Virus record (IMG/VR): IMGVR_UViG_3300033508_000293
Location: 1-56,643 of that record
Length of the DNA stretch: 56,643 nt
From: a virus
Lineage: Duplodnaviria > Caudoviricetes
Strand: one strand, 5' to 3'
Part shown: one piece after another, positions 28,725 through 47,186 of the stretch
How positions within the stretch are numbered: position 1 is the first letter of the stretch
How the letters are laid out: the number at the start of each line of letters is the position of its first letter
The notes under the pieces: model-generated
The model's database searches: none
What the model saw: only the letters and a program-made list of their open reading frames with translations
What the model was told of the DNA's origin: nothing
Translations under genes and position numbers: made by a program

Positions 28725-28759
28725 AAAAAAGGAGAACATTAAATGTTCTCCTTTTTTTT
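28725..28759. terminator. bidirectional terminator
   Basis: AAAAAAGGAGAACATT / AATGTTCTCCTTTTTT inverted repeat between convergent genes. Confidence 0.85.
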
Positions 28760-29597: not shown

Positions 29598-29652
29598 TTT
29601 AATTATTTTGTTATTTTTTATTATATATTGAGTGAAATTGGTTCAAAATAAA

Positions 29653-30078: not shown

Positions 30079-30103
30079 TTTATTTTAAATTATTTTTTAT
30101 ATT

Positions 30104-30565
30104 TTACACAAATATTCTTGTTATGAGATATAGTACAAAAACTAAAATAAGTCCTATACCAAGTCCTAAAAATGATCCAATTAAAAATCCTAATCCACCA
30201 AATATTAGGGTTATAAAAGACCAAATGAATTTATTAAACATTTTAGATGTATCTAAATGTTTAAATCTAAATGCTAAACCAATTTCTCTTTCACTTAAAG
30301 GTACTGCTTCCATAAGACCAACAAATTCAGTTAAACCTATTTGAATGAATGTTTTATCAATTCTAGACATTTCTTTTTGAACTAATGTATTAACATATTT
30401 AAATCCATATTCATTAACATTATCTACTTCATCAGCTGGAATTACATAAGTTTTATACATTCTCCATACCCAATCAATAGATATGTTATGTTGTTGTTTT
30501 AATAATTCTTCATTTTTTCTGAGAATACGAATATAAATTAAAAGTAATTTTAATTTTTTAAACAT
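30104..30565 (-). CDS. membrane-anchored protein
   Basis: C-terminal Gly-rich double TM. Confidence 0.65.
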   Translation of the reverse strand: MFKKLKLLLIYIRILRKNEELLKQQHNISIDWVWRMYKTYVIPADEVDNVNEYGFKYVNTLVQKEMSRIDKTFIQIGLTEFVGLMEAVPLSEREIGLAFRFKHLDTSKMFNKFIWSFITLIFGGLGFLIGSFLGLGIGLILVFVLYLITRIFV

Positions 30566-30624
30566 AATAAAAAGTGTTTTTGTTTATTTATATATGAAAT
30601 ATGGAAAAATGTTTAAAAATAATT

Positions 30625-33171: not shown

Positions 33172-33187
33172 AATTTATAAAAATAGT

Positions 33188-33541
33188 TTATTTCTTTAGG
33201 TTTTCAATATTTTCTTTAAAAGTTTGTAGAGTTAATTCATATTTCTCTATTTCTTTTTGTAAGTCTTCTATTGCTTTACCCATTTGACCTTTTCTTTTTT
33301 CAACAAGTTCTTTATTATCTTCTGTAAAAAATTCAACTTCTAATTTTTCTAAATTTTCCAATTTAGTTTCTAGTTCTTCTTTCTTTAATGCAATTTTTTC
33401 TTTAAGTTCTTCAATACTTTTTTCAATATTTTGAACATTATTTACTTTGATTTCATTATTATCAGCCATATCTTTCATAATATTTTCATATGGTTCTCTT
33501 GCAGCTTCTACAAATAATTTATATGTTTTTATGTTTTTCAT
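33188..33541 (-). CDS. coiled-coil protein with capsid-targeting-like leader
   Basis: MKNIKTYKLFVEA. Confidence 0.7.
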   Translation of the reverse strand: MKNIKTYKLFVEAAREPYENIMKDMADNNEIKVNNVQNIEKSIEELKEKIALKKEELETKLENLEKLEVEFFTEDNKELVEKRKGQMGKAIEDLQKEIEKYELTLQTFKENIENLKK

Positions 33542-34398
33542 TTATTTTGATTATTCATTTGTTTATTAGAATCTACATTTCCTTGTTTTTTTTGATTATT
33601 TGGTTGTTGATTATTATCTTTTCCTTGTTTTTCTTTTTTGGCTTCTTCTTTTTCTTCAGTAGTATTATATATCCCATGTTCAAATCTCCAACCTTTAAGT
33701 TTTTCTTTTAATTTATTAAATGTATCAATATACTTATTAAATATTACACTATAATTTTTTTGAAATTTTTCATATAAATTAAATAATCTATTTAATTTCT
33801 TCACTGTATCAATATTTGGTAGATCGGATAGAGTTGTCATTATATTAGAAATAGCTGTAAAATTATTTTCACCCTTACCATATAATTTCCCAATAGTTAA
33901 TGCACTAAGATATCTATTATCAGCCCATTCATATCCAATTATTGTTTGATTACTACCATCAGTACCACCTGTATTAAAAGCAAATGTAAATACTTTCATT
34001 TCTACTTGATTTGAATTTTTATATTTATAAACATAACCTAATTCAATTTCTTCTTTTTTAGGTTCTTCTTCAATTTTTTTGAAAAAAGATTTACGATCTT
34101 TACTAACTGGGATGTTTTTTCCACCATCTACTGGTGTACAAAGATATTTATCTGTTATAGCAGAAAGTACAATTTGGATATTTTCTCCACCTTCAGTTCT
34201 TGTATATGTATATTTTTGACCAACTACTAATTCAGGTGTACTATCAGATTTTTCTTGTCTTCTCTTATTCTGTAAATCTTTCATCAGTTGTACAAGAGAT
34301 TTAACATCTTTAACAATATCTTCTTGTTTAATTTTAGTTCCAGTAGTAGGTGCGTCTACTTCTTCATTTAAAAATGTTTTATATTTAGTAATTATCAT
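33538..34398 (-). CDS. hypothetical protein with capsid-targeting-like leader
   Basis: MIITKYKTFLNEE; Asn/Gln-rich tail. Confidence 0.7.
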   Translation of the reverse strand: MIITKYKTFLNEEVDAPTTGTKIKQEDIVKDVKSLVQLMKDLQNKRRQEKSDSTPELVVGQKYTYTRTEGGENIQIVLSAITDKYLCTPVDGGKNIPVSKDRKSFFKKIEEEPKKEEIELGYVYKYKNSNQVEMKVFTFAFNTGGTDGSNQTIIGYEWADNRYLSALTIGKLYGKGENNFTAISNIMTTLSDLPNIDTVKKLNRLFNLYEKFQKNYSVIFNKYIDTFNKLKEKLKGWRFEHGIYNTTEEKEEAKKEKQGKDNNQQPNNQKKQGNVDSNKQMNNQNK

Positions 34399-34409
34399 TT
34401 TATTTTATT

Positions 34410-36584
34410 TTATTTTTTTCTTATAATTTCCATAATTTCTTTTAATTTAGGATCTTTAATCAAATCACTAAATTTTGGTGTTTTCATAGTATCATCAATT
34501 CCATATTTTGACATATTAGAAAAATCTTTTAAATACAATATATCAGTTATTTCAATTTTGTTAGTATATAATACCCCATCATCAGTTATATTTTGTGGTG
34601 TAACACTTATCTGTATTATTTTTGATATACCTTGTTGATTTTTTTTAATATAAGATAATGTATAATCTTTATTTAACGCACTACATTTATTATCACTATA
34701 TATATTAAACACATTTAATTGATTACTTTGACTAGTTGATTTACCCGGAACTCTTATAACATCATAATATTGAATAAAATAAGTTGCCATATATGGAAAA
34801 TTTCCAGATTTTGGGTTATTATCATTAAATACTTTATATAAGTCTTCTTTTTTATAAGTAATATGTTCTTTAATTTTAGTTTCATCTGTTTCTGCTTCTA
34901 ATTTTTTCATATTATTTATAATTCCTATAATTTTTAAAACAGAATATTTTTTAGTGTTTATTGTTACTTCATCATTTATGTAGATATAATCTCTATTATC
35001 TGTTTTTAAAATACCAGCAACCCCTGTGGAAGTCTTTGGAAACCCCTTAACTAAACCTAAAATAGAATTTTTCTCTGCTTTATCATTAACTGCATCACCT
35101 GCACTTTTTACTAATTTACCAGCATCTTGTTTTAATTTATCTAAATCCGGTGCATCTTTAGATAATGCTGCTGGATTAACTTGATCAGTGTACATATATC
35201 TACTAAAAAGTGCTAAAATATCATTAGACATTTTTGCCCAAGTATTTTTTATTCTTAAAGTAGCATTAGTATCTGCTGCGGAATCTGCCCACATTCTTTC
35301 TGCTGCTAATTGTATTTTTACAATTGGTGCATAATTTTCTTTTACAAGTGCAGTAACACCTTCTTTTACTTCTTTAGGTTCAAACTTTTTAGCAAAGTCT
35401 TTGTTTTCTAATATAGACATATCTAAATTACCAACCTCGTCTGCTAATTTTTTATCTACACCAAATAATTTAACACCCCTAAAAGAAAACCCTTTAGATA
35501 TTTTAAATTCTTCATTTAAAAATTCACCATCTGTAAAATTAAATGATGCATTTTGATTAACATTTTGCTGTTGTTGTTGTTTTTGTTGTTGCCCACTACC
35601 AGTTGGTGGTGTATTACCATCACTATCTGATGTACTATCATCAGTTTGATTTTGGGGTACAATTGATTTTTCTATTTGTTTAATTAATGCTTCAAATATA
35701 GTTTTTTCTTTTTTAGTTTGTTTTAATTCTGCTTCTTTTATTATTATTTGATCAGAAGATATATCGTTTTTTTCATCATCTTTTTTTGTTTTTAAAGTTT
35801 CTTCTATTTCAGTAATAGTTTTATCTAATTCTTTAATAAATTCCTTAAGTTGGGATATTGTATCATTTTTCAATTGTTCAACATTATCAGTATCAACATT
35901 TTTTAATTCTTGATCAATATTTTTAAACAAATCAAGAATGTCCTTATCAAACCCTTCAAATTCTTCAACAGGAATACCAAATATTGTTTCACCCATATTT
36001 TCAATACCACCATTAATTTTATCTTCTATTTCTTTTGATATTGGTGCATCATACATTTTTATAATAATACCATCTTTTACATCAAAAGAAGTATTATCAT
36101 CTATTTTTAAGTACTTACCATCAACTTCTAATGGTTTATCATCTTTAAGAACTTTTGAACCTACAAGATAAAGACTCATTAATTTCTTTTCATTTGTAAA
36201 TTTAACTTCTATTTCTTCTACATTAATACCTTCTTTACTACCATCTAAATTTTCTAATTGTTTAATTTTATATAATGTATTAGGATCTTCACCTGTAAAA
36301 TCATTTTTAGCAGCATATCTAAGTACACAAGCTAAATATTCACGAAACAATGCTTTTTTATAAAGAAAAAGAATCCCTTCATTTACTTTTCTTCTGAAAA
36401 ATCCAAATATTTTAGCAACACCTGCTCCAATTAAAGTATTTTCCCATCCTGCCATATTACCTTTAACATTAGCAAAATAAGTATCACCACCACCACCATA
36501 AGATCCTGCTCTTGGGTCAGCATAGGTTTCTTCATTTAATTTTCTATATTCTTTAAAATTTTCAAATTTTGTTATGTTTTTCAT
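34410..36584 (-). CDS. large putative internal head protein with leader and internal FLNE site
   Basis: MKNITKFENFKEYRKLNEE; poly-Q linker followed by EFLNEEF. Confidence 0.7.
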   Translation of the reverse strand: MKNITKFENFKEYRKLNEETYADPRAGSYGGGGDTYFANVKGNMAGWENTLIGAGVAKIFGFFRRKVNEGILFLYKKALFREYLACVLRYAAKNDFTGEDPNTLYKIKQLENLDGSKEGINVEEIEVKFTNEKKLMSLYLVGSKVLKDDKPLEVDGKYLKIDDNTSFDVKDGIIIKMYDAPISKEIEDKINGGIENMGETIFGIPVEEFEGFDKDILDLFKNIDQELKNVDTDNVEQLKNDTISQLKEFIKELDKTITEIEETLKTKKDDEKNDISSDQIIIKEAELKQTKKEKTIFEALIKQIEKSIVPQNQTDDSTSDSDGNTPPTGSGQQQKQQQQQNVNQNASFNFTDGEFLNEEFKISKGFSFRGVKLFGVDKKLADEVGNLDMSILENKDFAKKFEPKEVKEGVTALVKENYAPIVKIQLAAERMWADSAADTNATLRIKNTWAKMSNDILALFSRYMYTDQVNPAALSKDAPDLDKLKQDAGKLVKSAGDAVNDKAEKNSILGLVKGFPKTSTGVAGILKTDNRDYIYINDEVTINTKKYSVLKIIGIINNMKKLEAETDETKIKEHITYKKEDLYKVFNDNNPKSGNFPYMATYFIQYYDVIRVPGKSTSQSNQLNVFNIYSDNKCSALNKDYTLSYIKKNQQGISKIIQISVTPQNITDDGVLYTNKIEITDILYLKDFSNMSKYGIDDTMKTPKFSDLIKDPKLKEIMEIIRKK

Positions 36585-36588
36585 ATTA

Positions 36589-36993
36589 TTATTGTTGTTT
36601 TTCAAATCTTATTCCTTTGTATATATATTTATTTTTAAATAGAATAAAGTGATTTTCATAAAAAATTGGTTTATCTTTATGTTTTACACTATCAAAAATT
36701 ATTTGACCTCTTAAATATATCTTATATGGTATATTATCATTCACATACTCTTCATATATTTCTTTAAATGTTTTTGGTTGTTCTACAATTATTTTTTTAA
36801 TAACTATTGGTTCTTCAACCTTTGTAATAATTGGTTCTTCAACCTTTGTAATAACAGATTCTTCAATTTGTTCTTCAACCTTTGTAATAATAGGTTCTTC
36901 AATTGACTGTTTTATAATTTTCTTAGGTGTTGTTTTTTTACTTACTTTCTTTTCAATAACATCATCCCAAAAATTTTCATTATTTTTTGTCAT
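36589..36993 (-). CDS. hypothetical protein with EEPIITKV repeats
   Basis: Short tandem peptide repeats at about 36790-36905. Confidence 0.65.
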   Translation of the reverse strand: MTKNNENFWDDVIEKKVSKKTTPKKIIKQSIEEPIITKVEEQIEESVITKVEEPIITKVEEPIVIKKIIVEQPKTFKEIYEEYVNDNIPYKIYLRGQIIFDSVKHKDKPIFYENHFILFKNKYIYKGIRFEKQQ

Positions 36994-37081
36994 ATATTTA
37001 TTATTATATTTATTTTTATATATATTAAAAATTAAAGCACAATTATTTTTTAATATATAAAGAAAAACATAAAAGTGAAAA

Positions 37082-37792
37082 ATGAAGTTTCAATCACTTA
37101 CTAAAGAACAAGTTTTAAAAGATTTTAATAAAATACATAATTATAAATATGATTATTCGTTAATGGACTATATAAATTCAAGAACTATTATAAAAATAAT
37201 ATGTCCTATTCATGGTATTTTTGAACAATATCCTTGTCATCATAAAAGAGGTTGTGGGTGTAAAAAATGTTATGATGAAAAAATAACACCTTCTAAAAAT
37301 GATTTTATTAATAAAGCTGATTTAATACATAATATGGATTTTGATTATATTTTAGTTGATTATATTAATGCACATACAAAAGTAAAAATAATATGTAAAA
37401 AATGTAATAATACATTTGAACAAACACCCAATAAACATTTAATGGGTCAAGGTTGTCCAAATTGTAAAAAATCTAAAGGAGAAAATAAAATTAGATTATT
37501 TTTTGAAAAAAATAATATTCAATTTAAAGAACAAAAAATATTCAATGGATGTAAATATAAAAGAAATTTAAAATTTGATTTTTATTTAGAAGAAAAAAAT
37601 ATCTGTGTTGAATTTGATGGTGATCAACATTTTGAAATGTATAGATTTGAAAAAAATGATGATAGATTAAGAATAAGAATATTAAGAGATTCCATTAAAA
37701 CTGATTATTGTTTAAAAAATAATATAACACTAATTAGATTAAAAACTAAAGATATTAAAGACATTGATAATATTTTAAAATCAGTTATTTAA
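37082..37792 (+). CDS. homing-endonuclease-like protein (2 zinc repeats + PD-(D/E)XK domain)
   Basis: SKGE...KFDFYL...CVEFDGDQH. Confidence 0.8.
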   Translation: MKFQSLTKEQVLKDFNKIHNYKYDYSLMDYINSRTIIKIICPIHGIFEQYPCHHKRGCGCKKCYDEKITPSKNDFINKADLIHNMDFDYILVDYINAHTKVKIICKKCNNTFEQTPNKHLMGQGCPNCKKSKGENKIRLFFEKNNIQFKEQKIFNGCKYKRNLKFDFYLEEKNICVEFDGDQHFEMYRFEKNDDRLRIRILRDSIKTDYCLKNNITLIRLKTKDIKDIDNILKSVI

Positions 37793-37819
37793 TATATAAA
37801 GAAAATATAATAATTAAAA

Positions 37820-38587
37820 ATGAAAATAATATCATATAATAAATATCAATTTCTATTAGATAATTTTCTAATTGAACCTATAAATGAAAGTTCTGAGTTT
37901 GCTCAACAACAAATGAATCAAGTTAGTAGTCCATTTGGTCCCGGATATGGATTTTCAACAGATAAATCACTAAGTATTTATTCAGATGGTAATAATCCTT
38001 ATATGGATAATTATGCAAGATTATCACAAGTTGTTGCTGATTTAGGTAGAGTAATGAAAAATTTACAAGGTGCTACATCTGCATCATTATCTGCAAAAAT
38101 AGATTATTTTTTAGAAGATTTAGAAGAATATCAAAATCTTAAAATTTTAAGAATATTTATTAATACTAATCTTAAATTAGATGTGTTTATATCATTTGAC
38201 TTTATGGAAGAAGAATTCTTTGGTGTTTTTAGAAATTTTAATGGTCTTAATGAACCAAAATTAGATACTGATTTATTTTCTGACCATAGATTTAATTATA
38301 TGGATAAAGAATATTATATAAAATTAAAAAACTATTTATATAAAATATTATTCAATTGGTTTATCCCAACACCTGGTGATTATAAAGTATTAACAGATGA
38401 ATTAAAAATGAAAAATTCAATGGGTCAAACTGTAATTGTAAAGAAAAATGCGAGTATTTTTGTTAAAGGATTTAATACTGATGCAGACAATAATCCATTT
38501 ATAATGATAAAATATAAAAGTGATATTTATGAAATAACTAAAAATGATTATTTCTATTTTAAATATAGAGCACAAAAAATTGATTAA
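37820..38587 (+). CDS. hypothetical protein with leader ending INE
   Basis: MKIISYNKY...EPINESS; TATATA box upstream. Confidence 0.7.
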   Translation: MKIISYNKYQFLLDNFLIEPINESSEFAQQQMNQVSSPFGPGYGFSTDKSLSIYSDGNNPYMDNYARLSQVVADLGRVMKNLQGATSASLSAKIDYFLEDLEEYQNLKILRIFINTNLKLDVFISFDFMEEEFFGVFRNFNGLNEPKLDTDLFSDHRFNYMDKEYYIKLKNYLYKILFNWFIPTPGDYKVLTDELKMKNSMGQTVIVKKNASIFVKGFNTDADNNPFIMIKYKSDIYEITKNDYFYFKYRAQKID

Positions 38588-38590
38588 ATA

Positions 38591-38616
38591 AAAAAAGACC
38601 TTTAAGGTCTTTTTTT
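38591..38616. terminator. bidirectional terminator
   Basis: AAAAAAGACCTT / AAGGTCTTTTTT inverted repeat. Confidence 0.8.
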
Positions 38617-39511
38617 ATTTCTTTTTAACAAAAGTGTAAAGTTTCCATTCAGCAGTATTATCAATCTTCTTATACTTTTTCATTTGATTTTCAAAGTTTT
38701 GTGTCTTAGCTGTATCTGGTAATGAAAGTATCACCTTATAAGAACCTAATAATTTTCTATTATCATAAAATTTTACTAAACTACCAGTTGGACCCTGTGC
38801 ACCTAATACTGCAATTCTATCATTTCCAACTACTGATTTTAAGAAGGATACTTTAATATATCCCATATTCTTTTTATCAAAGAAACTATTTCCCCATATA
38901 TCATTTAAATCTAATGTAGTATCAGTATTTTTAATTTCAATTGAACTTATTCCACCTTTTGTTACTTGGGTTTCACCTTCATCTTCTATTAATCCTTGTT
39001 GAACTAATTTAAATTGATTCCTTCTAATCACATTAAAATCAGCTGCAGCAAATGTTACTTCTGTCATAACCCTATCATTTCTCTTATATCCTTTAGGGGG
39101 AAGTCTGAAAAAATCTCCAGTAAATGTCATTGATAACATATTTACTGCTTTAAATAATCTCCAAACTTTCTTAGCATTTCTTTTTAAATTAACTGACCAA
39201 CCATCTAAGTGCCAACCTCTAATAAGAACATTACCTGTGTTTTTATTTTGTCCAATAACCATAGGACAAATAACTCTTTCTCTACCACCTTTCCATTCAT
39301 CTTTATCACCTCTATAATTAATAAGAATAACCATACCAAATTGTATTGCTTTAATCATAAGAGCTTTATCAAATTTAATTGGTTTATTAACAGGAAATTC
39401 TTTAATTAATTCCGGATTAATTTTATTTTCATTTAATTTACTCCAATTAATTTTAGGTGACATGTATATGTCCTTATTGTTGTAAAATAGTTTATGTTCA
39501 TTTAGATTCAT
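38615..39511 (-). CDS. WYL-like domain protein
   Basis: ILINY......RERVICPMVIG.....LIRGW......WRLFK follows the WYL pattern I.Y...R.I.P...YL.AW...R.FR; LNE sites in the N-terminus. Confidence 0.55.
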   Translation of the reverse strand: MNLNEHKLFYNNKDIYMSPKINWSKLNENKINPELIKEFPVNKPIKFDKALMIKAIQFGMVILINYRGDKDEWKGGRERVICPMVIGQNKNTGNVLIRGWHLDGWSVNLKRNAKKVWRLFKAVNMLSMTFTGDFFRLPPKGYKRNDRVMTEVTFAAADFNVIRRNQFKLVQQGLIEDEGETQVTKGGISSIEIKNTDTTLDLNDIWGNSFFDKKNMGYIKVSFLKSVVGNDRIAVLGAQGPTGSLVKFYDNRKLLGSYKVILSLPDTAKTQNFENQMKKYKKIDNTAEWKLYTFVKKK

Positions 39512-39555: not shown

Positions 39556-40830
39556 TTGAATTACAATTAAAAATTAATTGTTTCTTGGGCTGAATTTGTA
39601 ACCAATTTCATATCTCCACAAGCGTATATTTCTGTTATTCCAACAGTATTTAAAACTAATTCTCTGTCAAGAGATAATTCTCTATTATTTTTTACAAAAC
39701 TAAACCTCTTTATATTATTTGCAGCAAGTAAATCTCTATTGTGTGTTGTATTACAAGATTTACAGGTCCAAACTCTATCAGATAATTTAAGTTCATTATT
39801 TATTTTTCCACAAGAACACATTTTTGAAGAAGGTTCAAACTGACCAATTCTAATAATATTAGAACCATACCAATCACTTTTATAATCCAAATATGAATTA
39901 AAATTACCAATAGAAATATCTGATAAGGATTGTGTAAGTTTATGATTTTTCACCATGTTAGAAGGTTTTAATGTTTCTAAACATAATGTATCATAATTAT
40001 CAACCAAAAATTTACTTGTCTTATGTAAAAAATCATTTCTTTTATTTGAAACTTTTTCATGAATAATTGCAAGTTTTTTAGATTGTTTTTTCCTATTATT
40101 TGAACCTTTTACTTTTTTTGAAACTTTCCTTTGAATCCTTTTTAATTTTTTCAATGATTTTTTAAGATTTTTAGGATTTTCAATTTCAATACCATTTGAT
40201 AATACAACAAATGTTTTAATACCCAAATCAATTCCAATTGCTTTGTCCTCACTAATTGGTTTCTTTTTTGGTAATTCATTTGGTACTTCTACTAAAATAG
40301 AAATGAAATACTTACCAGTTGATGTTCTTGTTATTGTTGATGATTTAATTTTCCCTTCAAATATTCTACTTATTTTAATTTTTATTGGTGTTTTAAACTT
40401 TGGTATATCTAATTTTTGATTTTCAAAATCTACATAAGTAGATTGTTGAATAGAAAATGATTGTTTATTATTTTTCTTTGATTTAAATTTTGGATAATCC
40501 CCAGTTTTCTTAAAAAATTTTGTAAATGCATTATCAAGATGTTCAAGTGATGATTGTAAAGATTGACTATTAACTTCTTTTAACCAAGATGTTTCTTCTT
40601 GTTTTTTTAAAAGAGGTATGTCTTTTTGTAAATCAAATCTTGATAATCCTACACCGGTTTCTTGATAAACTCTATTTTTCTTTTCTAAAGCATAATTGTA
40701 TATCCATCTGGAACAGCCAATATGTTTTGAAATTAGTTCAATTTGTTCTTTATTAGGATAAATTCTATATTTATATGCTTTGTAAATCATATTAGTATAT
40801 ATTTTAAAAATAAAGTCTGTTTTTTCCAAA
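39556..40830 (-). mobile_element. IS200/IS605-family tnpB-only element (ends approximate)
   Basis: tnpB gene, 3' hairpin ACAATTAA/TTAATTGT followed by TTCAA; no tnpA adjacent. Confidence 0.65.
39567..40790 (-). CDS. tnpB: RNA-guided endonuclease TnpB
   Basis: KAYKYRIYP HTH, RuvC-I GIDLG, RuvC-II CLETL, zinc finger CSCG...CKSC, RuvC-III RDLLAA.NI; start probably MIYKAY. Confidence 0.93.
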   Translation of the reverse strand: MIYKAYKYRIYPNKEQIELISKHIGCSRWIYNYALEKKNRVYQETGVGLSRFDLQKDIPLLKKQEETSWLKEVNSQSLQSSLEHLDNAFTKFFKKTGDYPKFKSKKNNKQSFSIQQSTYVDFENQKLDIPKFKTPIKIKISRIFEGKIKSSTITRTSTGKYFISILVEVPNELPKKKPISEDKAIGIDLGIKTFVVLSNGIEIENPKNLKKSLKKLKRIQRKVSKKVKGSNNRKKQSKKLAIIHEKVSNKRNDFLHKTSKFLVDNYDTLCLETLKPSNMVKNHKLTQSLSDISIGNFNSYLDYKSDWYGSNIIRIGQFEPSSKMCSCGKINNELKLSDRVWTCKSCNTTHNRDLLAANNIKRFSFVKNNRELSLDRELVLNTVGITEIYACGDMKLVTNSAQETINF

Positions 40831-40833
40831 ATT

Positions 40834-40862
40834 AAAAATCCACTTTATGAGTGGATTTTTTT
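40834..40862 (-). terminator. intrinsic terminator
   Basis: AAAAATCCACT-loop-AGTGGATTTTT overlapping the stop of the upstream ORF. Confidence 0.75.
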
Positions 40863-41072
40863 ATTTAATAAATTTAATTTTTTACTTCTTACAAATTCTT
40901 GATATTCATCTATTGTTATATCAACACTTTTATTACCAGAATAATTATCTAACTCTTTAGTAACAGTAGATATTATTACATCATCATATACTTTATAATG
41001 TGTTACAAAATCAAAATTATAATCACATAAATAATTTATACATTCCAATAGTATGATTTTATCAATTTCCAT
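40845..41072 (-). CDS. small protein with C-terminal RxxKLxxL tail
   Basis: Start probably MEIDK; ends FVRSKKLNLLNKKIHS. Confidence 0.6.
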   Translation of the reverse strand: MEIDKIILLECINYLCDYNFDFVTHYKVYDDVIISTVTKELDNYSGNKSVDITIDEYQEFVRSKKLNLLNKKIHS

Positions 41073-42171
41073 TGTTTTTAAATAAATTTGTAAATATACC
41101 TTCAAGTACATTAACTACAATTGAATTCCCAGCCTGTTTCACTAATGTACCTTCATCAAATACTTTTAATACATTATCAACATCTTGGTCTGTGAATCCC
41201 ATTAATTTATAACATTCTCTACCATTTAAAAATCTTATCTTACCATCAATATAAACCTTACCAGCAATACCAGTTGTTAATGTTGGACTTACACCATCTT
41301 GACTATAAATCCTACCTAATGTTTCAAATTTATATTTTCCAATTAAATCAAATTTCTTTATATTATTTCTTGATGTACGAAATACAATTGGTTCTGGTAA
41401 GAATCCTGTAAAATCTAACCATCTTTCATCATTTAAATCAAGTATATCTTTAATTGTTTTAGTTGTGAAATTTACTTCTTTAGGCACATCATAATGACCT
41501 AATAAGGTTGAAACCATATAAACCCTATCTCTTGATTGGGGTACATCAAAATAGGTTGATCTTAGTTTAAAATCATAATTGGTATAACCTAAATCAGTTA
41601 ACATTTTTTTCCAATCATCAAACCCAGCTTTATTTTGTTCAGAATAAATACCCGGTACATTTTCCATAAGTAAATAGTTTGGTAATTTATCTAATCCTTT
41701 AAGTTCAGTTAAAATTCTACCTACTTGCCAAAGTAATGAACTTCTTTCTCCTGCATATAACCCTTTCTTTTTCCCTTGTATTGAAAGGTCTTGACAAGGG
41801 AATGAATATGTTAATAAGTCATGTTGTGGCATATTAATACCATTTAAATCAACAACACTACCAAGATTTTTATTATTAATATGTGCATCATATAATAATC
41901 TTAATTTCTTTAATGGTAATTTACTTAATTCACATTTAGTTTTAGTATTATTACTAAAGGTGAAATCTTTTAATTTTTCAATAATTTCTTCTTTTGTTAG
42001 TGTAATTTCAGTTGGTGTGTGATGTATATGATTATAAGATATAAGACAATTAATATCCCATTCAGATATCCCAACTACTTCAACTAGTACATTTATGTTT
42101 TTTAGAGCTTTGTATTGTGAACCAATACCTGCAAATAATTCTACAATTTTTACTTTTTCATTTTGTTTCAA
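41062..42171 (-). CDS. dcm: DNA (cytosine-5)-methyltransferase
   Basis: Motif I ELFAGIG, IV FPCQDLS, VI ENV, VIII QSRDRVY, X QAGNSIVV; TTG start. Confidence 0.95.
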   Translation of the reverse strand: MKQNEKVKIVELFAGIGSQYKALKNINVLVEVVGISEWDINCLISYNHIHHTPTEITLTKEEIIEKLKDFTFSNNTKTKCELSKLPLKKLRLLYDAHINNKNLGSVVDLNGINMPQHDLLTYSFPCQDLSIQGKKKGLYAGERSSLLWQVGRILTELKGLDKLPNYLLMENVPGIYSEQNKAGFDDWKKMLTDLGYTNYDFKLRSTYFDVPQSRDRVYMVSTLLGHYDVPKEVNFTTKTIKDILDLNDERWLDFTGFLPEPIVFRTSRNNIKKFDLIGKYKFETLGRIYSQDGVSPTLTTGIAGKVYIDGKIRFLNGRECYKLMGFTDQDVDNVLKVFDEGTLVKQAGNSIVVNVLEGIFTNLFKNNGN

Positions 42172-42306
42172 TTTTAGTTAATATTCTTTTTTATCTGTTT
42201 TAAGATAAATTATATATGATAAAATTTTAGATTTGTTTAGATTGAAAAAATAACTTTTTATTACATAATTTTTATTTTATATATATTATATAAAATAAAA
42301 ATTATT

Positions 42307-44205
42307 ATGCCTTTTAAAAACATTACAATAAAAAAACAACTTTTAGTTGGATCAATTTTTATATTACTTTTTGTTATATCATTAGGTGTTATATCACATC
42401 TACAAAGTAATACTATTCAAAATCAACTAAAAAATATGTATGAACATCCAGTAACAATTAAAAGAACAATTAGTAATATTAAAAACTATGTTTATTTTAT
42501 TGATGATGATATCAAAGATTTGTATTTAATAGATGATAAAAACAAAGTAGAAGAAATTAATTTATATTACAAAAATATTGAAACTGAAATTAATGTTATA
42601 AGAAATGTATATTTAGGTAAACCAGAAGATGTAGAATTATTAAATGAATCTATAATTAAATGGGAATCTATTTTTAAGGAATCATTAGATAAAAAGAATG
42701 ATATAAAATCAAGAGATATAATAGATACACAATTAAAAATAGTATTGAAAAATTTATCAGTTATTGAAACTTTTGCACAAGGTAAAATTGATGAATTTTA
42801 TAATAAATCTTTAGAAATAAGTTATTCTTTAACTAAACAATTAATTATAATAGTATTAATTATATTAGTATTAATATTATGTATAAATTATATTATATTA
42901 GATAATGTTAATAGTCCTTTAAAAAAATTATTACATACAACAAATAGATATCAAGAAGGGGAATTAGATACAAGAATTATTCATTCATATAAAAATGAAT
43001 TTGGTGAATTAGCAGAATCTTTCAATACAATGGCAGATACTATTCAAAAAAATATAATTATAAAAGAAAATAGATTTCATTCATTATTTCAAAATATGAT
43101 TGAAGGTGTTGCAATACATGAAATTATTTATGATGAAAACAATAAAGCAGTTGATTATAAAATTCTAACTGTTAATAAATCATTTGAAGAATACACCGGA
43201 ATATCTATTGAAAATGCAACAAATGCATTGGCAAGTGAATTATATGGTACAGGTGATGCACCATATTTAGACCAATATTATAGAGTTGCAAGTACTGGTA
43301 AACCTATGATGTTTGATACACATTTTGAAATTATGGGTAAATATTTTAGTATTTCAGTTTTTTCATATGAAAAAGATAATTTTGTTACGGTATTTCAAGA
43401 TGTAACTAATGATTATAAATTAAAGAAAAAATTAGTAGATAGAAATACTGAAATTCAAAACTATCTTTATATGGCATCACATGATTTAAAATCACCACTT
43501 GTTAATATACAAGGTTTTGGACAAAGATTAGAATCAGAAATTAAAGATGTTAAAATAATTTTAACTGATATTCAATTTAATTTAGATAAAAAACAAAATA
43601 TAGACAAAATTATAAATGAAGACATACCAAAAACATTAAATTTTATTTTTTCTAATGTAACAAAAATGGATAATCTTTTAAATGGATTATTACAATTATC
43701 AAGAACAGGCCAAGTTAAAATGAATATTAAAAAAGTAAATACAAATCAATTATTAAATAAAATAATAACTTCACTTGATTTTATAATAAATAAGTATAGT
43801 GTTAATATTAAAATTGATGAAGTAGAAGATTGTTTTGGTGATGAAAATCAATTAAATCAAGTATTTTCTAATATTATAAATAATTCCATTAAATATAGAA
43901 AAAAAGATGTTCCATTAAATATAACAATTTCAATGAAATCCAATATTAATTCAGTTATATATAGTATTACTGATAATGGAATAGGAATTGCACCAAAATA
44001 TTTAGAAAAAATATGGGATGTATTTTATAGAGTAAATCCTAAATATTCTGAATCAGGGGATGGGATTGGATTAAGTCTTGTTAAAACAATAATAAATAAA
44101 CATAATGGAAAAATATGGGTTGAATCTGAATTAGGAATAGGTACAACATTTTATATAGAACTATCAAAAAATGATTTCGTAGAAGAAAATGATTTTTTTG
44201 AATAA
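42307..44205 (+). CDS. membrane sensor histidine kinase (TM-helical sensor-TM, HAMP, PAS, HisKA, HATPase)
   Basis: H-box ASHDLKSPL, N-box NIINNSIKY, G1 DNGIGI, G2 GDGIGL; HAMP NEFGELAESFNTM. Confidence 0.93.
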   Translation: MPFKNITIKKQLLVGSIFILLFVISLGVISHLQSNTIQNQLKNMYEHPVTIKRTISNIKNYVYFIDDDIKDLYLIDDKNKVEEINLYYKNIETEINVIRNVYLGKPEDVELLNESIIKWESIFKESLDKKNDIKSRDIIDTQLKIVLKNLSVIETFAQGKIDEFYNKSLEISYSLTKQLIIIVLIILVLILCINYIILDNVNSPLKKLLHTTNRYQEGELDTRIIHSYKNEFGELAESFNTMADTIQKNIIIKENRFHSLFQNMIEGVAIHEIIYDENNKAVDYKILTVNKSFEEYTGISIENATNALASELYGTGDAPYLDQYYRVASTGKPMMFDTHFEIMGKYFSISVFSYEKDNFVTVFQDVTNDYKLKKKLVDRNTEIQNYLYMASHDLKSPLVNIQGFGQRLESEIKDVKIILTDIQFNLDKKQNIDKIINEDIPKTLNFIFSNVTKMDNLLNGLLQLSRTGQVKMNIKKVNTNQLLNKIITSLDFIINKYSVNIKIDEVEDCFGDENQLNQVFSNIINNSIKYRKKDVPLNITISMKSNINSVIYSITDNGIGIAPKYLEKIWDVFYRVNPKYSESGDGIGLSLVKTIINKHNGKIWVESELGIGTTFYIELSKNDFVEENDFFE

Positions 44206-44221
44206 AAATAAACTAATAGTA

Positions 44222-44650
44222 ATGAACACTGGTAAAGAAGTAGAAATATTAATTGCTGAAGATGATGATGGTCACGCAGAACTTATTATAACAGGATTAA
44301 AAAAATCTGGAATCTATAATAATATAGTCAGATTTTCAGATGGTGAAGAATGTTGGAATTTTTTATTAAATTCACTTAATAATTCTGATCTTGACCAAAA
44401 AACTTATCTTTTATTACTTGATATTAATATGCCATTAATGGATGGTATTGAAGTATTATCTAATATTAAAAATAATAAAGATTTAAAATATATCCCTGTT
44501 ATAATGTTAACAACAACAGATAATCCAAGAGAAATAGAAGCATGTTATGGATTAGGATGTAATGTTTATGTAACCAAACCTGTTGATTTTGGAAATTTCG
44601 CAGAAACATTAAACAGAATGGGAATGTTTATACAAATTATAAGAATATAA
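44222..44650 (+). CDS. single-domain response regulator (Rcp1/CheY-like)
   Basis: ILIAEDD, LLLDINMP (phospho-Asp), PVIMLTT, YVTKP. Confidence 0.93.
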   Translation: MNTGKEVEILIAEDDDGHAELIITGLKKSGIYNNIVRFSDGEECWNFLLNSLNNSDLDQKTYLLLLDINMPLMDGIEVLSNIKNNKDLKYIPVIMLTTTDNPREIEACYGLGCNVYVTKPVDFGNFAETLNRMGMFIQIIRI

Positions 44651-44652
44651 AA

Positions 44653-46572
44653 ATGGAAAAAAAGTTTGTACTTATTATTGAAGATGATGATGATTTAATT
44701 ATTTTACTTAAAGACAAAGTAGAAAAATTAGGATTTGAAACTATTTGTGTTCAATCCGGTGAAGAATCAATTGAGGTATTAAAAACCAATAAACCAACTT
44801 TAATAATATTAGATTACAATTTACCTGATATGAATGGAAATGAATTAGTAACTTATTTAAAAAGTAATAATTTATATCTACCACCTTTTGTTGTATGTAC
44901 AGGTATGGGTGATGAACAAATTGCAGTTGAAATGATGAAATTAGGTGCACAAGATTATATAATAAAAAATAAAAATTTTCTTGACTTAATTCCCATAGTT
45001 ATTGATGGAATTATTAATGATATTGAAAAAGAAATTAAATTTAAAAAAGCATTAAATGATTTATCTATTTCTGAAAATAAACATAAAATACTTTTTGAAG
45101 AATTAAAAGATAGTGAAGAAAAATTTTCTAAAGCATTTCAAACATCACCACATGCTGTTATTATTACTAACCCTGTTAATGGTGAAATTGTGGAAACAAA
45201 TGATGCATTTTTTAGTATGACTGGATATATTCCGGAAGATATTAAAACTGATTTTACTTCATTGAATCTTTGGTTAAATAAAAGTGATAGAGATAATGTA
45301 ATAAAACAACTTAAAAATAAGCAAAAAGTTATAAATCAAGAATATAAATTTAAAATTAAAGATGGTGGAATTATTATCGGTTCTTATTCAGCAAGTATAA
45401 TAACAATTAAAGAAACTATTTATGTATTATCCATTATTAATGATATTACTGAACTAAAAGAAATAGAAAATGATTTAATAGAAAGTGAAAAAATGTTAAA
45501 AGAAATACAAACAATCGCTAAATTAGGAACTTATGTATGGGATTTAACTACTGATAAATGGACAAGTTCTCTTATCCTTGATAAAATTTTTGGAATAGAT
45601 GAGAAATATGATAGGTCATTTAAAGGTTGGTTAAATATTATTCATGATGAATTTAAAGATATTATGTTAAATTATGTTGATAATGATGCAATGAAAAATA
45701 AATATTTCAACAAAGAATATAAAATAATTAAACAAGATACACAAAATGTACTTTGGGTTCATGGTATGGGTGAAATTATATCTGATGAAAATGATAAACC
45801 AATTAAATTAATTGGAACTATTATAGATATTACTGAAAGAAAAACATTTGAAAGTGAATTAATAATTGCTAAAAATAAAGCAGTTGAATCAGATAGATTA
45901 AAATCAGAATTTTTATCTAATATGAGTCATGAAATAAGAACACCAATGAATTCAATTGTTGGATTTACTGATTTACTTAATCTAGATTTACCACAATCAA
46001 GATTTAATAACTATTTAAATATAATCAAAACATCTAGTCAATTATTATTAACAATAATAGAAGATGTTATTGATTTATCTAAAATTCAATCTGGTTTATT
46101 TAATATTGACAAAGATTTTTTTGATATTAAATATATGATGACAATATCTGAAGAAGAATATAACAAAAGTATTGAACTCCAACAAAAAAATATTACTTTG
46201 GTTTTAGATATCAATAAAGAAGATATTGAAATATATAGTGATAAAACAAGAATTAAACAAATATTGAATAATTTAATTAATAATGCAATAAAATTTACTG
46301 ATGAAGGTATAATTACATATGGTTATACATTATCTAATGATAATATTGTATTTTTTGTTACTGATACTGGTATAGGTATATCAAAAGAACATATTAATAA
46401 AATTTATGATAGATTTTATCAAATAAAAGATATAACAAAAAAGAAACAAGTTGGTACTGGTTTAGGTTTAACCATATGTAAATCTATTGTTGAATTATTA
46501 GGTGGTGAAATATGGGTAGAATCTGAATTAGGTGTTGGTTCTAATTTCTACTTCTCAATTCCAATTAACTAA
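44653..46572 (+). CDS. cytoplasmic hybrid kinase REC-PAS-PAS-HisKA-HATPase
   Basis: LIIEDD, ILDYNLPD, two PAS/PAC domains (DITE), MSHEIRTPM, NLINNAIKF, DTGIGI, GTGLGL. Confidence 0.93.
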   Translation: MEKKFVLIIEDDDDLIILLKDKVEKLGFETICVQSGEESIEVLKTNKPTLIILDYNLPDMNGNELVTYLKSNNLYLPPFVVCTGMGDEQIAVEMMKLGAQDYIIKNKNFLDLIPIVIDGIINDIEKEIKFKKALNDLSISENKHKILFEELKDSEEKFSKAFQTSPHAVIITNPVNGEIVETNDAFFSMTGYIPEDIKTDFTSLNLWLNKSDRDNVIKQLKNKQKVINQEYKFKIKDGGIIIGSYSASIITIKETIYVLSIINDITELKEIENDLIESEKMLKEIQTIAKLGTYVWDLTTDKWTSSLILDKIFGIDEKYDRSFKGWLNIIHDEFKDIMLNYVDNDAMKNKYFNKEYKIIKQDTQNVLWVHGMGEIISDENDKPIKLIGTIIDITERKTFESELIIAKNKAVESDRLKSEFLSNMSHEIRTPMNSIVGFTDLLNLDLPQSRFNNYLNIIKTSSQLLLTIIEDVIDLSKIQSGLFNIDKDFFDIKYMMTISEEEYNKSIELQQKNITLVLDINKEDIEIYSDKTRIKQILNNLINNAIKFTDEGIITYGYTLSNDNIVFFVTDTGIGISKEHINKIYDRFYQIKDITKKKQVGTGLGLTICKSIVELLGGEIWVESELGVGSNFYFSIPIN

Positions 46573-46970
46573 CCAAAAAATTTTCCATCTATAAAATTCT
46601 GTAATGGTAAGAATAAATTCTTTGGTAATTCTTTAGGATTGAACCACTTCCATTCTAAACATTTTTCTGGTTCTACTCTTTTTACTTCACCATCATACTT
46701 ATTTGTAGAAAAAAATAATGTAATATAATGTTGGTTAATATCTTCCATTATATCATTACTTACACCAATAAATGTTAATTCTTTAACATCTAAATCAGTT
46801 TCTTCTTTTGCTTCTCTGATAATACAATCTTCAAAAGATTCATTCTTATCAAGTTTACCACCGGGTAATCCCCAAGTATTATTACCAACTGTACCTTGTC
46901 TTAATCCTAATAAAATTTCATTCTGTTCATTAAGAATAAATAATGCTAATCCTACTATTGGTCTTTCCAT
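46569..46970 (-). CDS. Nudix hydrolase (NUDT15/MutT-like)
   Basis: Nudix box GGKLDKNESFEDCIIREAKEETDL; EPEKC.EW.WF. Confidence 0.9.
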   Translation of the reverse strand: MERPIVGLALFILNEQNEILLGLRQGTVGNNTWGLPGGKLDKNESFEDCIIREAKEETDLDVKELTFIGVSNDIMEDINQHYITLFFSTNKYDGEVKRVEPEKCLEWKWFNPKELPKNLFLPLQNFIDGKFFG

Positions 46971-46985
46971 ATTATAATTTATTTT

Positions 46986-47186
46986 TTAAAAGTGTGTTCC
47001 ATTTGATAATGATATTCCATGTTTAATTCCATGTAAAAAATCATCTTCATCAAAACCCATTTCTTTATCTGTTAGATGATTACCAATAACAATCCCAATG
47101 GTATTACCTATATCAGATAAGTCTACCATTGGATCATTATTGATTGCATCAATTAATTCTTGTCTTATTTTGTTTATATCTTTCAT
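46986..47186 (-). CDS. hypothetical protein
   Basis: Small ORF in operon spacing. Confidence 0.55.
   Translation of the reverse strand: MKDINKIRQELIDAINNDPMVDLSDIGNTIGIVIGNHLTDKEMGFDEDDFLHGIKHGISLSNGTHF

What the first reader, a model, noticed from the sequence alone, without database searches (positions are those of the whole stretch)
42278..46572. Complete three-gene phosphorelay inside a phage genome
Seen: membrane sensor kinase, single-domain receiver and REC-PAS-PAS hybrid kinase, with all His, Asp and ATP-lid motifs intact. The operon is similarly AT-rich to its surroundings, is flanked by phage-type genes and follows a TATATATA box; there is no DNA-binding output domain. Known: this HK/Rcp1-like/hybrid triplet is a bacterial arrangement, and full two-component operons are uncommon in phages. 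Inference: the phage senses periplasmic or cytoplasmic cues and feeds phosphate into host or phage regulators (lysis timing, host physiology).
Basis: partly seen in the sequence, partly recalled or inferred. Interest (0 to 1): 0.75.

Follow-up and report, generated by a model that had tools for sequence, protein, structure and literature searches.

The report
Megaphage carries a captured bacterial signalling cassette
A fragment of a giant uncultured phage carries an intact three-gene sensor-kinase cassette taken from Bacteroidota-like bacteria, so the virus probably does some of its own sensing in the infected cell, although its target is unknown.

Summary
Three tightly packed, intact genes sit at 42307-46572. 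They encode a membrane kinase (NarQ-like four-helix sensor, HAMP, PAS, kinase core), a lone receiver, and a REC-PAS-PAS kinase.

The contig is viral. It is a roughly 6%-complete fragment of a Mahaphage-like megaphage: 25 of 54 ORFs match the 735-kb phage LR756501, and one block is collinear right up to that phage's own hybrid kinase.

The operon looks resident, not chimeric:
- Its GC3 is 7-12%, like the phage genes; bacterial homologue loci have 33-41% overall GC.
- It follows the contig's recurrent TATATATA motif.
- Contigs from other runs bridge both junctions.
- A 96%-identical natural variant gives dN/dS of 0.12-0.24.

The triplet is a widespread bacterial cassette. Of 79 bacterial loci, 54 have kinase, lone REC and a REC-led gene in this order. 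The nearest relatives are Bacteroidota/Paludibacter. The lone REC is Rcp1/LhfD-like.

It is not a complete phosphorelay: the window has no Hpt and no output regulator.

The best reading is an Lhf-like two-tier kinase cascade feeding an unseen phage or host regulator. Related megaphages commonly carry hybrid kinases and lone receivers, but I did not find this cassette type in other IMG/VR contigs. Earlier notes of this scan report other phage two-component modules on other DNA.

The parts
42278..42294 (+). TATATATA-centred promoter-like motif 22 nt before the HK1 start. It is one of 13 such sites in the window.
   Evidence: Eight of the 13 sites lie 15-58 nt upstream of an ORF start on one or both strands (ORF starts at 4933, 10785, 18257, 27242, 37082 and 42307 on +; 39511, 36993, 36605, 27164, 18191 and 10697 on -). 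Function is inferred, not shown. The sigma-70 scan was uninformative.
42307..44205 (+). HK1: inner-membrane sensor histidine kinase. Layout: TM1 12-30, periplasmic four-helix bundle, TM2 179-197, HAMP, PAS, DHp (H392) with a long insertion, catalytic domain.
   Evidence: Pfam; motifs and TM segments. AlphaFold model of residues 1-250: pLDDT 83.8. Best PDB matches are NarQ sensor-TM-HAMP fragments, E 1.3e-4 to 6.6e-4. PAS plus core is 43-49% identical to the first gene of six Bacteroidota and unclassified bacterial cassettes. The sensor is 25-33% identical to the N-termini of kinases encoded beside the cassette in five Paludibacter/Bacteroidetes loci.
44189..44650 (+). Lone receiver protein, Rcp1/LhfD-like. 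The probable true start is M12, at 44222. Phospho-acceptor is D78.
   Evidence: Pfam. It is 62-68% identical to a large family of ~143-aa lone receivers and keeps that family's conserved residues, including D78, T108 and K130. PDB: 3heb E 2.4e-34, RcpB 1k66, Rcp1 1i3c/1jlk, RcpA 1k68.
44653..46572 (+). HK3: soluble REC-PAS-PAS-HisKA-HATPase kinase (D54, H426). It has no TM segment and no C-terminal receiver.
   Evidence: Pfam; motifs. The core is TorS/LuxQ/ArcB-like, with no NCBIfam model above cut-off. The core is 72% identical over 242 aligned columns to P0003 and lies in a 12-row clade of unnamed AT-rich metagenome proteins; its sister is an IMG/VR viral kinase. The N-terminal REC is 49-55% identical to the third gene of Bacteroidota cassettes. 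The Bacteroidales locus L080 has the same 632-aa architecture.
39567..42171 (-). Left flank: TnpB/IS605-OrfB-like gene (39567-40829), an 88-aa ORF and a C5 cytosine DNA methylase (41062-42171). This stretch has no match in LR756501 and lies between the collinear block and the operon.
   Evidence: Pfam; PADLOC MTase_II and Cas12f-like hits; no W01 match.
46569..46970 (-). Right flank: NUDIX hydrolase gene, convergent with HK3 and overlapping it by 4 nt.
   Evidence: Pfam NUDIX 1.6e-23; phrog_1198; coordinates.
28758..39511 (-). Block collinear with LR756501 14352-35256, ending just before that phage's own hybrid kinase (36067-38280).
   Evidence: tblastn of window ORFs against the whole record; ORFs of the LR756501 locus.

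Best explanation
This is a resident, functional signalling operon of a Mahaphage-like megaphage that probably infects Bacteroidota. It descends from a three-gene cassette widespread in bacteria: a kinase with a phytochrome-type SHDLxxPL H-box, an Rcp1/LhfD-like lone receiver, and a receiver-led second protein.

In the phage copy the first kinase has a NarQ-like membrane input (four-helix bundle plus HAMP) in place of the long cytoplasmic PAS/GAF arrays of its bacterial relatives.

Likely mechanism (inferred, not shown):
1. HK1 inserts into the inner membrane of the infected cell and reads an extracytoplasmic signal.
2. HK1 autophosphorylates on H392 and passes phosphate to the lone receiver (D78) and/or to the N-terminal receiver of HK3 (D54).
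3. The lone receiver acts as cognate acceptor and phosphate sink, or as a small diffusible output.
4. Phosphorylation of D54, together with whatever the two PAS domains bind, sets the kinase/phosphatase balance of HK3.
5. HK3 (H426) then acts on a regulator not encoded in this window. That regulator lies either elsewhere in the unseen ~94% of the phage genome or, since the cassette came from host-like bacteria, is the host partner of the homologous host kinase.

This is a two-tier kinase cascade of the Lhf type, not a His-Asp-His-Asp relay.
For: Phage identity:
- The family-B DNA polymerase is 55.6% identical to the 735-kb phage LR756501.
- 25 of 54 ORFs match that record, with a collinear block from 28758-39511 to 14352-35256 that ends next to its hybrid kinase.
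- The source collection files the record as a virus, with a CheckV completeness of 6%.
- IMG/VR relatives with 62-75% identical polymerase are 2-14% complete.

Residence in the phage:
- GC3 is 6.6-11.7% in the operon and 5-16% in nine other window genes. Nine bacterial cassette loci have 33-41% overall GC.
- The operon follows the contig's recurrent TATATATA motif.
- Run contigs bridge the left junction (X2 41690-42537, X3 42112-42405), the right junction (X1 46514-46928) and the gene junctions (X1 43800-45682, X2 43565-45117).
- An independent 3.2-kb contig is 96-97% identical over 42274-45469.

Selection:
- dN/dS against that variant is 0.24 (HK1, 579 codons), 0.12 (REC, 82) and 0.20 (HK3, 272), with no stops.
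- All catalytic motifs are present.

Bacterial cassette:
- Of 79 bacterial loci found with the lone REC, 69 have an HK1-type kinase directly upstream and 60 a REC-led gene directly downstream. 54 have both, and 27 of the downstream genes carry a kinase core.
- L080 has the same REC-PAS-PAS-kinase third gene.
- HK1 PAS plus core lies in a 26-row clade (SH-aLRT 99) with 16 Bacteroidota rows.

Input module: NarQ-like model.

Mechanistic analogue: in R. palustris, BphP2/3 phosphorylate the lone receiver LhfD (called a phosphate sink). The REC-kinase LhfE acts downstream through its His185, and the REC-HTH protein LhfA is the output (PMC6879726, passages read).

The wider clade keeps such genes. 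LR756501 has a PAS-kinase-REC hybrid and a lone 125-aa REC. Two 98-100% complete 640-676-kb IMG/VR megaphages each have 6 REC matches, in hybrid kinases and in lone frames of 124-191 aa.
Against: - No phosphotransfer, expression or phenotype data exist; no RNA run was available.
- Which receiver HK1 serves, and whom HK3 serves, is inferred only from gene order and from the Lhf analogy. In the Lhf system itself the link between the first kinases and LhfE is stated to be unknown.
- No output regulator and no Hpt are in the window. No Hpt is in LR756501 or three IMG/VR megaphages, so the end of the pathway is unidentified.
- HK3's core belongs to the hybrid-kinase type, and most of its closest relatives carry a C-terminal receiver that HK3 lacks. 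Its acceptor may therefore be unusual.
- The kinase-core tree does not place HK3 with the LR756501 kinase (unresolved polytomy). The shared position may reflect a hotspot rather than orthology.
- The receiver tree is poorly resolved: no starred clade holds HK3's REC.
- The right junction is bridged only by run X1, which may be the sample of origin.
- The host is inferred, not shown.
Confidence: 0.6

Rival explanations
1. Two separate modules share one operon. HK1 and the lone receiver form a self-contained pair whose output is the phosphorylated receiver itself, acting through protein-protein contacts as CheY, DivK or Rcp1 do. HK3 is an independent cytoplasmic PAS sensor whose N-terminal receiver is fed by host kinases.
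For: Kinase-lone REC adjacency is the most conserved feature of the cassette: 69 of 79 loci, against 60 of 79 for the REC-led gene. In the bacterial loci the third gene varies widely, and only 27 of 60 carry a kinase core. HK3's core belongs to a different lineage from the cores of the bacterial third genes. LhfD is dispensable for the Lhf output.
Against: 54 of 79 loci keep all three genes in the same order with short gaps. REC and HK3 are 2 nt apart. HK3's REC is of the cassette third-gene type, 49-55% identical.
Confidence: 0.2
2. Interference rather than sensing. The phage proteins mimic the host's own cassette and act as a phosphate sink or competing kinase/phosphatase. This would silence or override a host pathway, possibly a two-component defence such as Detocs (kinase, buffer receiver, receiver-effector).
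For: The genes derive from host-like bacteria, which carry homologous cassettes at 47-66% identity. The layout of kinase, lone buffer receiver and receiver-led third protein is the same as that recalled for Detocs; this lead came from an earlier scan note.
Against: HK1 and the lone REC match no PADLOC model. HK3 has only a marginal hit (E 4.6e-4) to a candidate family. I do not know whether that 2023 library holds Detocs models. The third gene is a kinase, not an effector enzyme. An intact membrane sensor, HAMP and three PAS domains under purifying selection fit signal reading better than a simple sink.
Confidence: 0.08
3. Passenger DNA: a recently captured bacterial fragment with no role for the phage.
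For: A TnpB-like gene and a methylase that LR756501 lacks lie directly beside the operon. This type of kinase core and lone REC was not found in other IMG/VR contigs.
Against: GC3 is fully phage-like, while the bacterial loci have 33-41% overall GC. dN/dS is 0.12-0.24 between two natural variants. The operon follows a phage-type upstream motif. Its chimeric, compacted architecture differs from any bacterial locus seen.
Confidence: 0.05
4. The contig is cellular or a chimeric assembly.
For: A near-identical 3.2-kb fragment was binned into a bacterial MAG. 29 of 54 ORFs have no match in LR756501.
Against: Synteny with a curated 735-kb phage. DNA polymerase, SbcC-like and head-tail adaptor PHROG hits. 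Uniform composition. Bridging contigs from three runs of different studies. No tRNA genes (rRNA was not searched).
Confidence: 0.02

Closest known systems
Lhf system of Rhodopseudomonas palustris (BphP2/BphP3, LhfD=Rpa3017, LhfE=Rpa3018, LhfA), PMC6879726
   Same: The module order is the same: sensor kinase, lone receiver that is its cognate acceptor and is described as a phosphate sink, then a receiver-plus-kinase protein acting downstream. The chain 4zyl_A ('RphyB protein') is among the PDB matches of the phage receiver, E 3.7e-15. That 4zyl is the Rpa3017 structure is my recollection; no call shows it.
   Different: The phage's first kinase has a NarQ-like membrane sensor, not a phytochrome. 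HK3 has two PAS domains. No LhfA-like REC-HTH output is in the window. It is encoded by a virus.
Cyanobacterial phytochrome pairs Cph1-Rcp1, CphA-RcpA and CphB-RcpB (PDB 1i3c, 1jlk, 1k68, 1k66)
   Same: The lone receiver is of the same subfamily by sequence, E 3.6e-22 to 3.6e-15. One bacteriophytochrome-domain protein (P0234) appears among HK1's homologues at 35% identity over 40% of the query. That this H-box type is typical of phytochrome kinases is recalled.
   Different: HK1 has no PAS_2, GAF or PHY photosensory domains, and a third gene is present.
Three-gene cassettes of Bacteroidota MAGs, e.g. locus L080 (Bacteroidales) and Paludibacter loci L073-L084
   Same: Same order and spacing. 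HK1 core 47-58%, lone REC 60-66% and third-gene REC 48-55% identical. The L080 third gene is REC-PAS-PAS-HisKA-HATPase, 632 aa.
   Different: The bacterial first kinases are 550-1760 aa cytoplasmic PAS/GAF arrays without the 4HB-HAMP input. HK3's kinase core is only 41-44% identical to theirs and clusters elsewhere. Overall GC is 33-41% in the bacterial loci against 21-25% in the operon.
NarQ/NarX-type sensor-TM-HAMP input (PDB 5iji, 5jef, 5jgp)
   Same: Predicted TM1, four-helix periplasmic bundle, TM2 and HAMP. These are the best Foldseek matches.
   Different: Only 13-16% identity and TM-scores of 0.36-0.46, so no ligand can be named. NarQ has a HisKA_3 core and a NarL partner (recalled), unlike HK1.
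Hybrid PAS kinases and lone receivers of Mahaphage-type genomes (LR756501; IMG/VR records of 640-676 kb)
   Same: AT-rich phage-borne PAS-kinase genes 44-58% identical to HK3's core. The first PAS of the LR756501 kinase is 43% identical to HK1's PAS, and that kinase sits after the same collinear block. Lone receivers are present, and there is no Hpt and no DNA-binding regulator.
   Different: Those are single hybrid genes with a C-terminal receiver. None has the HK1-type core (best 29%) or an Rcp-like lone REC (best 33%).

Membership tests
Class I (HisKA) sensor histidine kinases | DHp with a phospho-accepting His in an H-box, plus a catalytic domain with N, G1 and G2 boxes | tested here: met
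   HK1: H392, N 522-526, G1 556-560, G2 584-589. HK3: H426, N 539-544, G1 571-575, G2 601-606. HK1's HisKA score (24.5 bits) is under the Pfam cut-off because of a ~23-residue DHp insertion. Its six aligned bacterial relatives share that insertion.
Receiver (REC) domains competent for phosphorylation | Acidic pocket, phospho-acceptor Asp, conserved Thr/Ser and Lys | tested here: met
   Lone REC: D25-27, D78, T108, K130. HK3 REC: D11-14, D54, T83, K105.
Rcp1/LhfD-like lone response regulators | Single REC domain of ~140-150 aa whose closest solved relatives are phytochrome response regulators, encoded directly after its kinase | tested here: met
   PDB matches 1k66, 5brj, 5ic5, 1i3c, 1k68 and 4zyl follow the top hit 3heb. 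An HK1-type kinase lies directly upstream in 69 of 79 bacterial loci and in the window.
Rcp1/LhfD-like lone response regulators | The partner kinase is a (bacterio)phytochrome photoreceptor | tested here: not met
   HK1 has no PAS_2, GAF or PHY domain.
Multi-step phosphorelay (His-Asp-His-Asp) | An Hpt domain or an equivalent second histidine carrier | tested here: not met
   PF01627 gives no match in the window at E<=0.1, and none in LR756501 or three IMG/VR megaphages. The window is only ~6% of a genome.
Multi-step phosphorelay (His-Asp-His-Asp) | A terminal response regulator with an output domain | tested here: not met
   The window holds only two REC domains: the lone REC and HK3's.
Lhf-type two-tier cascade | Sensor kinase, lone REC, REC-kinase and a REC-HTH output encoded together | tested here: inconclusive
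   The first three are present. The REC-HTH is absent from the window, but most of the genome is unseen.
Detocs-type defensive two-component system | Match to known defence-system protein models, and a third gene carrying an effector enzyme | tested here: not met
   No PADLOC hit for HK1 or the REC, and only a marginal one for HK3. The third gene is a kinase. I do not know whether this PADLOC version holds Detocs models.
Mahaphage clade of huge phages (Al-Shayeb et al. 2020) | Placement in the clade by terminase or capsid phylogeny | not testable with these tools
   I found no terminase or capsid gene in the window. Support is indirect: the polymerase's five best matches are the uncultured phages of 462-735 kb, there is synteny with LR756501, and the paper says genomes over 634 kb fall in Mahaphage.

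The most novel reading that the evidence does not exclude
A giant phage builds its own sensory pathway in the infected cell. A virus-made inner-membrane receptor reads a signal outside the cytoplasm. A second, cytoplasmic PAS kinase integrates that with the cell's internal state. The result is written onto a host regulator (the partner of the host's homologous cassette) or onto phage late or lysis functions. The virus, not the host, would then decide how the infected cell responds to its surroundings.

The chimeric HK1 would be a phage-specific invention. It joins the sensor of one host kinase to the core of the neighbouring one.
Probability: 0.3. Interest if true: 0.8.

Novelty: new member of a known kind. 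Interest (0 to 1): 0.5.

Why it matters
Phages are usually thought to read the state of the host through a few small regulators. An intact, selected cascade of membrane sensor, receiver and second kinase in a megaphage suggests more. Together with the hybrid kinases and lone receivers in complete 640-735-kb relatives, it suggests that the largest phages routinely carry signal-transduction hardware.

I found no description of this in the searchable literature. Exact phrases such as 'phage-encoded histidine kinase' matched 0 papers, and the main text of the huge-phage paper does not mention two-component systems.

The work also defines a very widespread bacterial three-gene cassette whose only studied relative I could find is the Lhf system. 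The proteins are ordinary enough to be tested by standard phosphotransfer assays.

Tried and rejected
I therefore could not see the neighbours of the closest HK3 relatives (P0003-P0007, two of them on 148-kb and 174-kb contigs). Whether those are phage genes with the same triplet stays open.

Scans that gave nothing useful:
- Single-protein scans of viral contigs with HK3, HK1 (one 28% hit) and P0005.
It returned 80 loci with at most 46% identity to HK3's core and no triplet among the 14 lowest-GC loci I inspected.

IMG/VR relatives with the closest polymerase: 0 of 5 have a REC domain. They are 2-14% complete, and the longest covers only window 25617-33541, so this says nothing about the operon.

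Expression: no RNA holder listed.

Promoter and terminator scan: 44 promoter-like sites against 60.4 expected, and 0 terminators. This is uninformative in 23% GC DNA.

tRNA scan: none found.

NCBIfam: no model above its cut-off for any of the three proteins.

Orthology of HK3 with the LR756501 kinase: not supported by the core tree.

The receiver tree is poorly resolved. Five rows (P0016, P0021, P0022, P0024, P0040) had non-REC N-termini and long branches and should be ignored.

The other GHKL hits in the four other huge phages are 600-1100-aa frames that I did not examine.

I did not run complex prediction: a kinase-receiver pair would pass by likeness to solved pairs and would not tell the two receivers apart.

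Literature: supplementary tables of PMC7162821 could list such genes, but supplements were closed. The papers were seen as search listings only. PMC7824862, PMC7162821, PMC13172472 and PMC6879726 were read as passages.

Full report
**What is there**

The + strand carries three ORFs: 42307-44205 (632 aa, HK1), 44189-44650 (153 aa, REC) and 44653-46572 (639 aa, HK3).

Pfam results:
- HK1 has 4HB_MCP_1, HAMP, PAS_8, a weak HisKA and HATPase_c.
- The middle protein has Response_reg only.
- HK3 has Response_reg, two PAS regions, HisKA and HATPase_c.

A script located all the catalytic residues:
- HK1: two hydrophobic segments (12-30, 179-197), H392 in SHDLKSPL, and the N, G1 and G2 boxes.
- REC: D78, T108, K130.
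- HK3: D54, T83, K105, H426 and the N, G1 and G2 boxes. It has no hydrophobic segment.

Alignment with 15 homologues suggests that the receiver really starts at M12, at 44222. REC and HK3 are 2 nt apart.

**The contig is a megaphage fragment**

- The window is the whole record, filed as a virus in its source collection, with a CheckV completeness of 6%.
- Its family-B DNA polymerase (22504-24021) is 55.6% identical to the 735-kb uncultured phage LR756501. It is 35-43% identical to four other uncultured phages of 462-642 kb.
- I fetched all of LR756501. 25 of 54 window ORFs of at least 70 aa match it at E<=1e-5.
- Window 28758-39511 is collinear with LR756501 14352-35256. In that phage the next genes are a 228-aa ORF and a 737-aa PAS-PAS-PAS-kinase-REC hybrid.
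- In the window a TnpB-like gene, an 88-aa ORF and a C5 methylase lie between the block and the operon. None of the three matches LR756501.
- Al-Shayeb et al. state that their genomes over 634 kb fall in the Mahaphage clade and are predicted to replicate in Bacteroidetes (PMC7162821, passages).
- PHROG hits to DNA polymerase, an SbcC-like nuclease, a head-tail adaptor and NUDIX fit a phage.

**The operon belongs to the phage**

- GC3 is 6.6% (HK1), 11.7% (REC) and 8.6% (HK3). Nine other window genes have 5-16%. Nine bacterial loci with the homologous cassette have 33-41% overall GC.
- A TATATATA-centred motif sits 22 nt before the HK1 start. The window has 13 such sites, and 8 of them lie 15-58 nt before an ORF start.
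- Contigs from public microbial-mat runs bridge the junctions:
  - methylase-HK1 junction: X2 41690-42537, X3 42112-42405;
  - HK3-NUDIX junction: X1 46514-46928;
  - both internal junctions: X1 43800-45682, X2 43565-45117.
  - X1 may be the sample of origin.
- A 3.2-kb contig binned into a bacterial MAG is 96-97% identical over 42274-45469.
- Against that variant, dN/dS is 0.24, 0.12 and 0.20 for the three genes, with no stop codons.

Chimeric assembly, decay and a cellular origin are therefore all disfavoured. Expression could not be examined.

**Where it came from**

*The lone receiver.* It is 62-68% identical to a very large family of ~143-aa lone receivers. The named members are from Bacteroidota. 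By sequence its best solved relatives are 3heb and the phytochrome response regulators RcpB, Rcp1 and RcpA.

*The cassette.* A scan of one genome per species with this family returned 80 loci. One is the near-identical phage fragment. Of the other 79:
- 69 have a kinase with an HK1-like core directly upstream;
- 60 have a gene that begins with an HK3-like receiver directly downstream;
- 54 have both;
- 27 of the downstream genes carry a kinase core.

The loci come from many phyla. The best matches are Paludibacter and other Bacteroidales: HK1 core up to 58%, REC up to 66%, third-gene REC up to 55%.

*Same architecture in bacteria.* The Bacteroidales locus L080 has a 632-aa REC-PAS-PAS-HisKA-HATPase third gene, the same architecture as HK3.

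*Trees.* In a 70-row tree of PAS plus core, HK1 lies in a 26-row clade (SH-aLRT 99) with 16 Bacteroidota rows. The 10 of 79 loci without an upstream kinase were left out of that tree.

**How the phage copy differs**

*The input of HK1.* Bacterial first kinases are 550-1760-aa PAS/GAF arrays. HK1 instead has TM1, a periplasmic four-helix bundle, TM2 and HAMP.
- The AlphaFold model of residues 1-250 has pLDDT 83.8, from a 7-row alignment.
- Its best PDB matches are NarQ sensor-TM-HAMP fragments (E 1.3e-4 to 6.6e-4, TM-score 0.36-0.46). Next come four-helix ligand-binding domains of chemoreceptors.
- At 13-16% identity no ligand can be named.

This input aligns end to end, at 25-33% identity, with the N-termini of kinases encoded about 1 kb beyond the cassette in five Paludibacter/Bacteroidetes loci. 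HK1 thus looks like a fusion of the sensor of one host kinase with the PAS and core of its neighbour.

*The core of HK3.* It is only 41-44% identical to the bacterial third genes. It groups with P0003 (SH-aLRT 99) inside a 12-row clade of unnamed, N/K/I-rich metagenome proteins (SH-aLRT 98). The sister of that clade is the kinase of a 21.5% GC IMG/VR contig. Most members of the clade are REC-PAS-kinase-REC. HK3 and P0003 lack the C-terminal receiver.

**Other megaphages**

- LR756501 has one hybrid kinase and one lone 125-aa receiver. Two of the other four huge phages have a lone receiver.
- A profile scan of IMG/VR gave 50 loci. The low-GC ones include records of 640 kb (direct terminal repeats, 100% complete) and 676 kb (98% complete). 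They carry PAS-kinase-REC genes 44-58% identical to HK3's core.
- Those two near-complete genomes each have 6 REC matches, in hybrid kinases and in frames of 124-191 aa. They have no Hpt.
- In several of them the kinase lies within a few kb of homologues of window genes 28758-30625 and of the polymerase.
- By contrast, the Rcp-like receiver (best viral hit 33%) and the HK1-type core (best 29%) were not found in other IMG/VR contigs. These were pattern-seeded searches, so distant copies could be missed.

**How it probably works**

This part is inference. The window has no Hpt and no output regulator, and HK3's receiver is N-terminal. 'Complete phosphorelay' is therefore not the right description.

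The closest studied system is Lhf of R. palustris. There, two bacteriophytochrome kinases phosphorylate the lone receiver LhfD, which is dispensable and is called a phosphate sink. The REC-kinase LhfE acts downstream through its conserved His and senses a second signal. The REC-HTH protein LhfA is the output. The link from the first kinases to LhfE is still unknown there (PMC6879726).

By analogy:
1. HK1 reads an extracytoplasmic signal and phosphorylates D78 and/or D54.
2. HK3 integrates this with its PAS inputs.
3. HK3 acts on a regulator that is either elsewhere in the phage genome or in the host.

**Rivals**

- Two independent modules share one operon.
- The phage proteins interfere with the host's homologous cassette or with a defence system. 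PADLOC gave no support.
- The operon is passenger DNA.
- The contig is an assembly artefact or cellular.

**Novelty**

The proteins are ordinary members of known families, and the cassette is a bacterial one. What is notable is that it is virus-encoded, fully ameliorated, under selection and rebuilt.

In the searchable library, six exact phrases for phage-encoded kinases or two-component systems matched 0 papers. The main text of the huge-phage paper has none of the relevant terms. The jumbo-phage survey mentions receiver domains only for a divergent NAD-linked type. Supplements could not be read.

Earlier notes of this scan report other phage two-component modules on other DNA. They are unchecked leads and are not counted as evidence here.

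Noticed in passing
window 39567-40829 (-): A TnpB/IS605-OrfB-like protein (420 aa, Cas12f-like by PADLOC) lies next to a C5 methylase. LR756501 lacks this insertion. A 49% identical copy lies about 2 kb from the hybrid kinase of another low-GC viral contig (L243).
   Followed up: partly
window 11904-12797, 24466-25545, 37082-37792 (+): Three paralogous genes; the one tested by Pfam (24466-25545) has treble-clef zinc-finger (DUF4379) and DUF723 hits. All three match the same place beside the DNA polymerase in LR756501 and in IMG/VR relatives. They look like a spreading homing-endonuclease-like family.
   Followed up: partly
window 4901, 10752, 18212, 24307, 27212, 37017, 42278 and others: A TATATATA-centred motif, roughly TTTATATATAATAAAAA, recurs 13 times. 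Eight sites lie 15-58 nt before ORF starts, often in divergent intergenic regions. It is a candidate phage promoter.
   Followed up: partly
window 46569-46572: HK3 and the convergent NUDIX gene overlap by 4 nt. That leaves no room for a terminator, and no terminator-like site was found in 41800-47200.
   Followed up: no
L105 (3.2-kb contig of a bacterial MAG): This fragment, 96-97% identical to the phage operon, is filed in a bacterial metagenome-assembled genome. It is probably a binning error.
   Followed up: partly
L076, L077, L083, L084, L093 (Paludibacter/Bacteroidetes MAGs): In these loci the cassette is followed, about 1 kb on, by a fourth gene. The four I scanned or aligned in full length start 4HB_MCP-HAMP-GAF and continue to a kinase core, one with two C-terminal receivers. 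Its sensor is the closest relative of HK1's sensor. This four-gene cluster appears undescribed.
   Followed up: partly
window 48851-55846 (-): A 2331-aa protein with long runs of ST-rich 'RVSTEESVRTS'-type repeats. Parts of it match LR756501 and other megaphage contigs. It is probably a fibre or surface protein.
   Followed up: no
IMG/VR records behind L234/L236 and L235/L238 (676 kb and 640 kb): These near-complete megaphage genomes each hold 6 REC matches: two hybrid kinases plus lone receiver frames of 124-191 aa. They have no Hpt.
   Followed up: partly
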